From: Octopus vulgaris
Taxonomy: Eukaryota
Direction: 5' to 3'
NCBI GenBank assembly: GCA_951406725.2
Contig: OX597828.1
Span: 11,780,001 to 11,844,000, forward strand
DNA: 64,000 nt
The notes under the pieces were generated by a model. The model saw nothing but the letters and a program-made list of their open reading frames with translations, was not told the DNA's origin and ran no database searches. Positions 1 through 59,217 of the stretch are shown in pieces (position 1 is the stretch's first letter; each line of letters opens with the position of its first letter). A program made the position numbers and the translations under genes.

Positions 1-645
1 AACATGGGCCGTGGCTGCTGAGGATATGCGTAAGCTCGCAAGAAATGAAGCCAGTATGCTCCGATGGATGTGTAATGTCAGTACTCATACTTGGCAGAGT
101 GTAAGTACCTTGAGAAAAAAGCTGGACCTAAGAAGCATCAGTTGTGGTGTGCAAGAGAGACGTTTGCGCTGGTATGGGCATGTGGCGAGAATGGATGAAG
201 ATAGTTGTGTGAAAAAGTGCCACACCCTAGCGGTTGAGGGAACATGTGGAAGAGGCAGACCCAGGAAAACCTGGGACGAGGTGGTGAAGCACGACCTTCG
301 AACTTTAGGTCTCACTGAGGAAATGACTAGAGACCGAGACCTCTGGAAGTGTGCTGTGCGCGAGAAGACCCGGCAGGACAAGTGAGACCATAACCCGTGG
401 CCTTCTACATGGGATGGAGCCAGCCTACGTATGCATACCTTCCCTTCTTAGGACACAAAACTCTACTTGTGAAGACCTGTTGAGGCAAGTGAGGATCAGA
501 ATCGAAATCGATCAATGGAAATTGCAGATGAGTTACCAGTGCCGGTGGGATGTATGAGAACCATCCGTTCATGACCGTTGCCAGCGCCGCCCCGACTGGC
601 CTCGTGCCGGTGGCACGTAAAAAGCACCATCCGTTCGTGTCCGTT
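1..645 (+). mobile_element. RTE-clade LINE, 3' end (C-terminal ORF to 385, then 3' UTR)
   Basis: ORF 11-385 has MLRWMCNV...RRLRWYGHVARM...GRGRPRKTW...DRDLW, typical of the post-RT region of RTE LINEs. Confidence 0.85.
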
Positions 646-655
646 TTAAATTTAA

Positions 656-706
656 TTTGTCAAAATATTTTCGTCGCTTTGAGACCGCGACGTGTTCACT
701 GACAAA
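656..706 (-). ncRNA. Minimal type-I hammerhead-ribozyme-like motif, G3:C8 variant
   Basis: Minus strand: TTTGTCA-GTGAACA-C-GTCGC-(9 nt)-GCGAC-GAAA-ATAT-T-T-TGACAAA; 7-bp stem I, 5-bp stem II, palindromic stem III; 15 nt from a (TA)n tract. Confidence 0.6.
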
Positions 707-721
707 ACTTCGTGCTGCATC

Positions 722-787
<66 letters not shown>

Positions 788-3894: not shown

Positions 3895-5182
3895 ATTTGG
3901 TCATTCCATAAATGATACGGTTTTTTCAATTGCATGAACTAAAAGCCGGAGGGGGACGGGGTAAACTACCTGCATCAACTTGCTATAAAAGCATGTCGTA
4001 ATTTTACCTTCTACTTATTCGTAGTGCAAATTTTGAAGTGTGCAGTTCGATTTTAACAGTTATTTTTCAAAGCTATAATGTAAATGGCAAAGGTTCATAT
4101 TCATCATATTTTGCTTTATGAGTTCAATAAAGGCAACAACGCAACAGAAAGTGCGAGGAATATTAATGCAGTACATGGTGATCGGACAATAAGCGTAAGC
4201 CAGTGTCAACGGTGGTTCCAGAAATTCTGAGCCGGAAACTACAGCCTCGAAGACGAGCCTCGTCCTGGAATATCTGTATAGATTGACAAAGACGTTTTGC
4301 AAACTCTGGTGGAACAAAATCCCATTGTAATTGTCAAGGAACTAACAGAAAAGCTTGGATTTGGTCATTAACCATTCATCGATACCTGCGTGCTATCGGA
4401 AAAGCCAGAAAATTGGGTCAATGTGTTCCTAACAAACTTTCCGTGTCTAATCTCGCGCAGAGAATGAATGTATGCTCTTCTTTGCTGTCACGTCTCATGA
4501 ATGAACCTTTTTCGGACCGAATAGTGACTTGTGATGAGAAATGGGTTCTCTGTAAAAATGTTAAGTACCGAAGTCAGTGGACAGGGAAAGGAGAAACACC
4601 GGTAGCTGAAGCTAAAGAAGGTCTTCACCCACGTAAGGTGTTGTTATCTGTTTGGTGGGATACGAAAGGTTTAATCCACTTTAAACTTTTAAACTCAAAT
4701 CAAAGAAAAACAAGGGAGATCTACTGCGAGTAGCTTGAGCGGGTAAGTCAGCGCTAGAAGAAAAATGACTATCTTTTTCCTTTCAAGACGAAATGTATTC
4801 TTCCATCAGGATAATGCTCGGCCACATACAGCGAAAATGAAATTCCAAAGGCTGGAGTAGTTTGAATGGGAAACGATGCCCCACCCACCATATTCCCGGA
4901 CATTACCCCATCTGATTATCATTTATTCCGTAGTTTTCCAAATCATTTGTACGGAAAAAAAGATGAGTTCTGTAGACGATGTCCGAGCAGTACTGGAGGA
5001 GTATTTTTCGTCAAGGACACATGAATTTTGGAAGAGGGGCCTTGCAAGTCTACCAGATAGATAGAAGAGCATTGTAGAAAATGAAGGAGAGCATATTTTA
5101 AGTTAAAAAAAAGAACTTGTTTATCTTAATTTTGAACAGTAAAAAAAGTATAAAAAAACATTATTTATAGGATAACCCAATA
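3895..5182 (+). mobile_element. Decayed full-length mariner (DD34D) transposon
   Basis: Frameshifted transposase: HILLYEFNKGNNATESARNIN, IVTCDEKW, LLSVWWD, HQDNARPH, PHPPYS; degenerate TIRs (TATT..GTCATTCCATAAAT / TTTATAGGATAACCCAATA). Confidence 0.9.
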
Positions 5183-58505: not shown

Positions 58506-59217
58506 AATATTAACATAGATCTTCCTAATTACACACTAGTAAATATATTTCATGATATTCTTTTACTTAGGGGTACTCAAATATGTGAGTTAAGAAACCT
58601 TCCCAAATATCTGTGATGTAAGTTTCGCATGTAAAAGAAAGTTTGAAATATTTTTTATAATAAAATTTGAGTTCAAAAGTTCAAACTGTAAATGGATATA
58701 AAAAATAATTGTATTTTTTACCTTGAAAATATTTGGTAAAAATTTTAGTCTCTTTACGATTTAATTACAGAAATATTTTACAAAGTAAATACAACCGAGT
58801 TTTAAAACGAGGTTGTTGTTGCTTTTTCGACAATAGTTCAAGCACTTAAAATTTTAACAAAACCAAATGGAACAACATTATCTGTAAACTTGTAGTTAAT
58901 TCAATTTTCATGACAGAAATATAATGTAGGTGTGAAACTAAAATTAAATCACGAATAATTAACTGCTGAGAATTGCTACGTGAGTCTATTAGTGACCATG
59001 TCGCAGTGGTGTGACGAAAAGTTTAGCATTGCTAGAAATAATGAAAATGAATTAAATAGATATTGTGTGGTTTTGTTGGCTGAAATGGCTCTTCTGCAAT
59101 TCAAGTGATAAATTTTAATACTCGTTTCCTGGTCGTGTTAATTATGAGACAATTAAATGACTGATGTTTTGGAGAGTGTATTAACTCGCATTTATCTTGC
59201 TGCTAAATAATTCTATC

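What the first reader, a model, noticed from the sequence alone, without database searches (positions are those of the whole stretch)
656..721. G3:C8 swapped hammerhead wedged between an RTE 3' end and (TA)n
Seen on the minus strand: perfect 7-bp stem I (TTTGTCA/TGACAAA), 5-bp stem II closed by the canonical G10.1-C11.1 pair, GAAA and palindromic AATATT. The core reads GUGAACA with one extra nt after A9. Both partners of the 3:8 pair have changed together, which random decay rarely produces. Only ~75 nt of the host element remain, so it may be a very short non-autonomous PLE end.
Basis: partly seen in the sequence, partly recalled or inferred. Interest (0 to 1): 0.7.

Follow-up and report, generated by a model that had tools for sequence, protein, structure and literature searches.

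The report
Penelope retroelement hammerhead with swapped core
This is a broken scrap of a very common octopus jumping gene whose end repeat carries a "hammerhead" RNA motif with its two paired core letters swapped; the swap is fixed and old, the motif likely cuts slowly at best (untested), and this copy is predicted to misfold.

Summary
The motif is real (window 706-656, minus strand) and is not single-copy. It is the 5' part of the pseudo-LTR of a Penelope-like retrotransposon (RT plus C-terminal GIY-YIG) with about 8,000 copies. G3:C8 is the family state: 90 of the first 100 listed copies, none C3:G8. Older, diverged relatives also carry G3/C8, while a sister lineage keeps C3:G8 with covarying stems. 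So it is one old swap, not decay of this copy. The short copies match the autonomous element's pLTR and are not a separate non-autonomous element. Their 5' ends cluster about 58 nt upstream of the cleavage site, often with an extra G (cap-like); 2 of 82 end near that site, so integrated templates were mostly uncut. Cleavage is untested. In the papers I could reach, natural U3:A8 is described and G3:C8 only as an engineered, partly active rescue; key papers were unavailable. The scan found this family before on other DNA. New variant of a known kind.

The parts
645..722 (-). 5' fragment (about 78 nt) of the pseudo-LTR of a Penelope-like family ('family A'); starts at the family's preferred 5' end and is cut 11 nt after stem I, lacking the usual 3' 70-130 nt
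700..706 (-). stem I, 5' strand (7 nt)
693..699 (-). core positions 3-9, GUGAACA: G3 at 699 and C8 at 694 replace canonical C3 and G8
692..692 (-). extra nucleotide between 9 and 10.1; G in the family, private C here, predicted to pair with G12
673..691 (-). stem II (5 bp, G10.1-C11.1) and its 9-nt loop
663..672 (-). GAAA, palindromic stem III (AAUAUU, predicted to pair between two copies) and U17; predicted cleavage between 663 and 662
   Evidence: site inferred from hammerhead numbering
656..662 (-). stem I, 3' strand (7 nt)
722..787 (.). (TA)33 microsatellite, the family's usual insertion context
1..644 (+). unrelated LINE (RTE-type by recalled motif): open frame to the stop at 383-385, then 3' UTR cut off inside its internal repeat array
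58984..59036 (+). second, much older relative of the same motif in this window, also G3:C8 (G3 at 58992), decayed

Best explanation
The feature is a dead 5' fragment of the pseudo-LTR of an abundant, recently active Penelope-like retrotransposon whose minimal hammerhead motif carries a family-wide, old G3:C8 swap, and that motif likely works as a slow, dimer- and protein-gated self-cleaving RNA rather than as the step that defines transcript ends. Shown: the motif sits in both pLTRs of full elements, 4.26 kb apart, flanking an RT + GIY-YIG ORF; G3:C8 is fixed; older relatives share it; a sister lineage has C3:G8. Inferred: transcription starts at a capped site 58 nt upstream of the cleavage site; reverse transcription starts internally at about +88 or +148, which yields thousands of 150-210-nt copies; stem III would form only between two motifs through the palindrome; cleavage is rare enough that most integrated templates were uncut. 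This window's copy then lost its 3' part and gained a G-to-C change predicted to lock G12 into stem II. Identity and fixation: about 0.95; residual gated cleavage: about 0.5.
For: Copy number 8,088 and 7,849 exact pattern matches, controls 0 and 6. G3+C8 in 90 of the first 100 listed, C3+G8 in 0; no variant at 5% or more at G3 or C8 in contigs of four runs labelled with four organism codes. Motif in both pLTRs with tandem and inverted 5'-truncated layout. 999-aa open frame with GIY-YIG above Pfam cut-off; model pLDDT 90.6, best matches TERT (Z 13.6, rmsd 4.1, 376 aligned) and I-TevI (Z 11.8, rmsd 2.2, 90 aligned). Among 51 diverged relatives picked by a stem II pattern that ignores the core: 32 'old' copies have G3 16, C8 22, C3:G8 0; 19 sister-lineage copies have C3 19, G8 17; 18 of the 20 sister rows group at 99/97 on a tree built only from sequence 3' of GAAA. 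Old majority versus family A: core 7 of 8 and stem I 5' strand 6 of 7 identical, against 5 of 15 upstream and 53 of 90 downstream. Stem III stays palindromic at different lengths and a stem I pair changes G-C to U-A. 5' ends: 43 of 82 at -62 to -52, 2 of 82 within 3 nt of the cleavage site; 3' ends 32 at +84..93 and 44 at +144..150. A G absent from the full element precedes the start in 87 of the first 100 of 1,202 G/A matches. Frangieh 2024 (PMC11167929, parts 1-2 read): in another PLE, C3G/G8C partly rescues cleavage, cleavage needs the PLE protein, is dispensable for insertion in vitro, and two internal RT starts make the tail.
Against: No cleavage was measured. Within family A the core mutates no less than the flank (0-2 of 65 per core position, similar downstream), so fixation there is only common descent. 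The swap is one event, so pair counts (GC 12, CG 8, GU 1, other 4 in 25 hand-picked rows) are not independent covariation. In single old copies stem I pairing was 0.53 in register against 0.51 slid by 3: no support at copy level. The extra nucleotide is G, outside the published consensus H. The youngest sister family prospers with A9 changed to C (48 motif instances), which suggests cleavage is weakly selected in this lineage. The motif lies 22 nt from the inferred start site, so promoter function could explain its conservation. ViennaRNA prefers non-hammerhead dimers (-32.0) to the active dimer (-27.0 kcal/mol).
Confidence: 0.55

Rival explanations
1. The motif no longer cleaves. The hammerhead-derived sequence is kept because it overlaps the internal promoter or forms an RNA structure used by the element's protein, and G3:C8 is a hitchhiking accident of one master lineage.
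For: Integrated copies almost never begin at the cleavage site (2 of 82) and often keep a cap-like G. The young sister family carries A9C. The path from C:G to G:C needs a mismatched intermediate (inference). Hammerhead mutants do not affect insertion in vitro in another PLE. Penelope has an internal promoter at its transcript start (PMC2377424, passages).
Against: The change restores exactly the tertiary pair known to rescue activity. Stem III remains palindromic and stems I and II change in compensating ways between lineages. Other Penelope-type motifs in the same loci show C3:G8 or U3:A8, i.e. paired states.
Confidence: 0.32
2. The short copies are a separate non-autonomous element (retrozyme- or SINE-like) that spreads from its own master.
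For: 0 of 82 sampled copies run into the ORF and only 4 reach the upstream limit examined; about 8,000 pLTR matches against 485 first-look candidates for an RT stretch.
Against: Short copies match the pLTR and tail of the ORF-bearing element, in both sub-variants. Their ends are the inferred start site and the two tail ends. No tandem monomer arrays were seen; the one tandem followed up was a 3.4-kb duplicated host segment.
Confidence: 0.08
3. The motif is a fast, fully active ribozyme that processes the transposition RNA at both pLTRs.
For: 7-bp stem I, intact G5, A6, G12, A13, A14 and a permitted UUU triplet.
Against: Copy ends avoid the site; no stable monomeric stem III; minimal PLE hammerheads are weak in vitro even with a canonical core; G3:C8 is only a partial rescue.
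Confidence: 0.05

Closest known systems
Minimal type I hammerheads in pLTRs of metazoan Penelope-like elements (Cervera and de la Pena 2014, PMC4209133; parts 1-2 of 4 read, supplement file 2 searched)
   Same: Position in both pLTRs, extra nucleotide between 9 and 10.1, G10.1-C11.1, palindromic stem III implying dimers, thousands of solo and inverted copies.
   Different: 3:8 pair is G:C instead of C:G; the only natural covariation reported in what I read is U3-A8 (Schistosoma, about 1,300 hits). The extra nucleotide is G, where their consensus has H.
Poseidon of Anolis carolinensis (PAc) and its hammerhead (Frangieh et al. 2024, PMC11167929; parts 1-2 of 4 read)
   Same: Hammerhead at the pLTR-ORF junction, two 3' ends separated by a tail, AT-rich targets, no ends at the cleavage site.
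   Different: G3:C8 is an engineered double mutant there and the natural state here. The tail here is about 60 nt, and the protein has a Zn-finger-like linker and a long RT insertion.
Natural core variants of hammerheads (Perreault et al. 2011, PMC3088659; passages)
   Same: Natural covariation at 3:8 that keeps the pair.
   Different: The passages name U3-A8 only; G3-C8 did not appear.
Neptune and Nematis clades of EN+ PLEs (Craig et al. 2021, PMC8557442; section 11, passages, supplement parts 2 and 54)
   Same: C-terminal GIY-YIG with a CX3CxxC linker (short, Nematis-like spacing) and (TA)n targets.
   Different: RT motif 3 to motif 4 spacing is 129 aa against 60 in a Neptune-like ORF of the same genome; Craig et al. 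describe canonical C-terminal EN+ PLEs as lacking an insertion there. Clade not assigned.

Membership tests
Minimal type I hammerhead of PLEs | Located in the pLTRs of a PLE | tested here: met
   L131 has the motif at 4737 and 8998, flanking the ORF
Minimal type I hammerhead of PLEs | CUGANGA core sequence | tested here: not met
   GUGAACA; C3+G8 in 0 of 100 listed copies. The 3:8 pair is kept in swapped form, so I file it as a variant, not a consensus member.
Minimal type I hammerhead of PLEs | Extra nucleotide between 9 and 10.1, and G10.1-C11.1 | tested here: met
   G in 96 of 100; G10.1-C11.1 in 25 of 25 aligned rows, but stem II was part of the search patterns
Minimal type I hammerhead of PLEs | GAAA, palindromic stem III and NUH site | tested here: met
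   AAUAUU then U17; 4-nt palindrome in the old families' majority
Minimal type I hammerhead of PLEs | Self-cleavage as a dimer | not testable with these tools
   Needs an assay; RNA-guess runs were contigs only and cannot show ends
Canonical EN+ Penelope-like element | Single ORF with telomerase-like RT and C-terminal GIY-YIG | tested here: met
Canonical EN+ Penelope-like element | pLTRs from partial tandems, inverted 5'-truncated copies, optional tail | tested here: met
   46 of 82 sampled copies have an inverted partner by a rough motif test
Naiad/Chlamys | N-terminal endonuclease | tested here: not met
   GIY-YIG at residues 889-979 of 999
Hydra clade | Under 3 kb, CCHH absent, CxCX5C linker, divergent RT4 | tested here: not met
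   Unit 4.26 kb, CX3CxxC linker, Cys/His residues present in the nuclease, GGAIG at RT4 (one search read)
Neptune/Nematis | CX2-5CxxC linker and no insertion between RT3 and RT4; placement in an RT tree | tested here: inconclusive
   Linker present; about 70 extra residues between RT3 and RT4; no tree with named reference elements was built
Non-LTR retrozyme | Tandem 170-400-nt monomers each with a hammerhead | tested here: not met
   Sampled copies are solo or inverted; the tandem followed up was a 3.4-kb host duplication; the whole genome was not screened for arrays

The most novel reading that the evidence does not exclude
A natural, catalytically competent G3:C8 hammerhead has been kept by selection across several successive Penelope families, deliberately slow so that capped templates survive until reverse transcription; whole ribozyme families with non-CUGA cores are then invisible to standard searches, and this lineage (G3:C8, C3:G8 and A9C sisters, RT with a TERT-position insertion plus C-terminal GIY-YIG) is an undescribed PLE clade that offers a natural series for testing what PLE hammerheads are for.
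Probability: 0.3. Interest if true: 0.7.

Novelty: new variant of a known kind. Interest (0 to 1): 0.45.

Why it matters
C3G/G8C is the textbook compensatory mutant of hammerhead enzymology; a natural family of about 8,000 copies that uses it, next to sisters with C3:G8 and A9C, gives ready-made alleles for the open question of what hammerheads do for Penelope elements. It also shows that descriptors starting with CUGA miss whole families, which bears on claims that some PLE groups lack hammerheads. The pile-up of 5' ends at a capped start upstream of the site is genome-scale support for the in vitro finding that uncut RNA is the insertion template. The window's own copy is only a decayed fragment.

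Tried and rejected
Rfam scans found no hammerhead family; mir-type hits are microsatellite noise. No RNA holder was listed on record; four guessed-RNA runs were contigs and could not show ends, strand or splicing. The sequence before the start site looks like a branch point plus 3' splice site, but no joint supported splicing, and the extra G fits a capped start better; a splice role is not excluded. A 3.4-kb tandem on C2 was a host duplication, not the element. The RT stretch beside L003 is another PLE into which a short copy inserted. Metagenome search gave 2 related contigs without usable pLTRs. A score-based split of old and sister copies misassigned several and was replaced by the tree-based split; L251 and L295 were kept with the sisters by their sequence although the second tree placed them apart. 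Literature searches for a natural G3:C8 hammerhead returned only engineered cases; Lunse et al. 2017, Przybilski and Hammann 2007 and Arkhipova et al. 2017 were not held, and one supplement file of PMC4209133 could not be searched, so priority is not established. The fold search confirmed RT and GIY-YIG but did not show whether the RT insertion resembles the TERT insertion.

Full report
Observation. A descriptor for either 3:8 orientation hit once in the window and once in 300 shuffled windows. Rfam does not recognise it. The LINE on its left ends its frame at 385, but its 3' UTR is cut at 644, well short of the terminus seen in related copies; (TA)33 lies on the other side.

It is a repeat family. 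The 82-nt stretch has 1,186 first-look candidates, 40 scored. Exact patterns give 8,088 matches for a 23-mer just 3' of the motif and 7,849 for the core region with positions 3, 7, 8 and the extra base left free; reversed controls gave 0 and 6. Of the first 100 listed core matches, 90 have G3 and C8, none has C3 and G8, and the extra base is G in 96 and C in none. Contigs of four public runs with four organism codes show no variant at 5% or more at G3 or C8. The window's extra C is therefore private; folding predicts it pairs with G12 (probability unpaired 0.02 against 0.99 for a family copy).

The host element. Walking upstream led to a 4.26-kb unit with the motif in both pLTRs, a partial tandem and an inverted 5'-truncated copy (L131). 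One copy keeps a 999-residue open frame with GIY-YIG at the C-terminus; its model (pLDDT 90.6) matches TERT best and I-TevI for the nuclease. An ATG in frame with the ORF lies 56 nt 3' of the predicted cleavage site. This is a canonical EN+ Penelope-like architecture (Craig et al. 2021, passages and section 11). The best database relative is an Octopus vulgaris protein, 61% identical over the RT region, which matches a second family in this genome at 99-100%, so the host is an octopus.

How old is the swap. That sister family B has the motif at the same place with C3:G8 but A9 changed to C, and with compensating changes in stems I and II (48 instances); an older B copy is fully canonical. A pattern on stem II and GAAA that ignores the core found 78 more diverged relatives; I fetched 50 and added the one at window 59000. 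On a tree built only from sequence 3' of GAAA, 18 of 20 sister-type rows form a group at 99/97; the others form a star with family A, end branches about 0.3 (bootstrap not fully settled). The 19 sister-type copies have C3 in 19 and G8 in 17; the 32 old copies have G3 in 16, C8 in 22 and C3:G8 in none. The old majority agrees with family A at 7 of 8 core and 6 of 7 stem I 5' positions against 5 of 15 upstream and 53 of 90 downstream, keeps a shorter palindrome, and swaps one stem I pair. So one ancient swap has been carried through several rounds of amplification. Against over-reading: it is one event; family A copies mutate evenly over core and flank; single old copies give no clear stem I signal (0.53 against 0.51 slid); the 25 rows of the pair count were hand-picked and stem II was fixed by the search.

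How the short copies arise. In 82 distinct copies taken in order along contig C1 from the listing, 43 begin 52-62 nt upstream of the cleavage site and 2 begin within 3 nt of it; 32 end at +84..93 and 44 at +144..150; none runs into the ORF. Where the full element has C or T before the preferred start, short copies often have G: 7 of 9 direct junctions (two are near-duplicates) and 87 G to 13 A in the first 100 of 1,202 genome matches. I read this as a reverse-transcribed cap (inference). Frangieh et al. 2024 showed for another PLE that RT starts at two internal sites that define the tail, that uncut RNA is the main template, that hammerhead cleavage needs the protein, and that C3G/G8C partly rescues it (parts 1-2 read). 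The same scheme explains these copies: capped start, internal RT start 150-210 nt downstream, hammerhead mostly uncut. Cut RNAs may simply not be copied, so this does not show inactivity. The window copy starts at the usual 5' end and has lost its 3' part together with the LINE's end, most simply by a later deletion (inference).

Comparison. Cervera and de la Pena 2014 describe minimal hammerheads in pLTRs with an extra base before 10.1, G10.1-C11.1, palindromic stem III, weak dimer activity and a natural U3-A8 family (parts 1-2; consensus in the supplement). Perreault et al. 2011 report natural U3-A8 (passages). A review passage gives partial rescue of G8C by C3G (PMC8495972), and one paper mentions an engineered G3-C8 variant (PMC3884650, passage). 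My searches found no natural G3:C8 family, but three relevant papers were not held. That an extra C or G at this position harms a viroid hammerhead is recalled from de la Pena and Flores 2001, of which I saw only the title. Two earlier notes of this scan describe a G3:C8 hammerhead family elsewhere in this genome; I looked them up after forming my reading.

Verdict. Real, family-fixed and old; ordinary in layout, unusual in one core pair; activity untested and probably low; the window copy is a dead fragment. New variant of a known kind, interest 0.45.

Noticed in passing
window 58984-59036 (+): A second, much older G3:C8 relative of the motif in the same window; only 2 hits by DNA search but part of a set of 78 pattern matches.
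   Followed up: yes
L211:50-102 and other family B loci (L206-L235): A very young sister PLE family (99% identity, many intact 1,312-aa frames) whose hammerhead has C3:G8 but A9 changed to C and U17; older copies have A9 and C17.
   Followed up: partly
L128:2971-5967 (-), residues about 444-579: The RT has about 70 extra residues between motifs 3 and 4 (129 against 60 aa), shared by 116 homologs (minimum 127, median 130), at the position of the TERT insertion-in-fingers, in an element with a C-terminal nuclease; possibly an undescribed PLE clade.
   Followed up: partly
L091:5130 and 8540 (-), L092:4995 (-); L079:195 (-), L101:2781 (+): Two other minimal hammerhead motifs with U3:A8 cores; canonical C3:G8 motifs at L146:2706 (-) and L218:34 (+). 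The genome holds three different Watson-Crick states at 3:8.
   Followed up: no
L092:7546-9840 (-); L095:1200-3342 (+): A different, Neptune-like PLE ORF (RVT_1 and GIY-YIG) with a possible U3:G8 hammerhead after the L095 copy (seen by eye near L095:3510).
   Followed up: no
L131:4700-4722: Branch-point-like and polypyrimidine-AG sequence immediately before the preferred 5' end; could be a 3' splice site overlapping the inferred start site.
   Followed up: partly
L003:1340-1700: A short family A copy inserted into the RT of another PLE, with an apparent 9-bp target duplication.
   Followed up: no
L093:8239-9291 (-): Tc1/mariner-type transposase frames next to an inverted family A pair (label recalled from motifs, not tested).
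   Followed up: no
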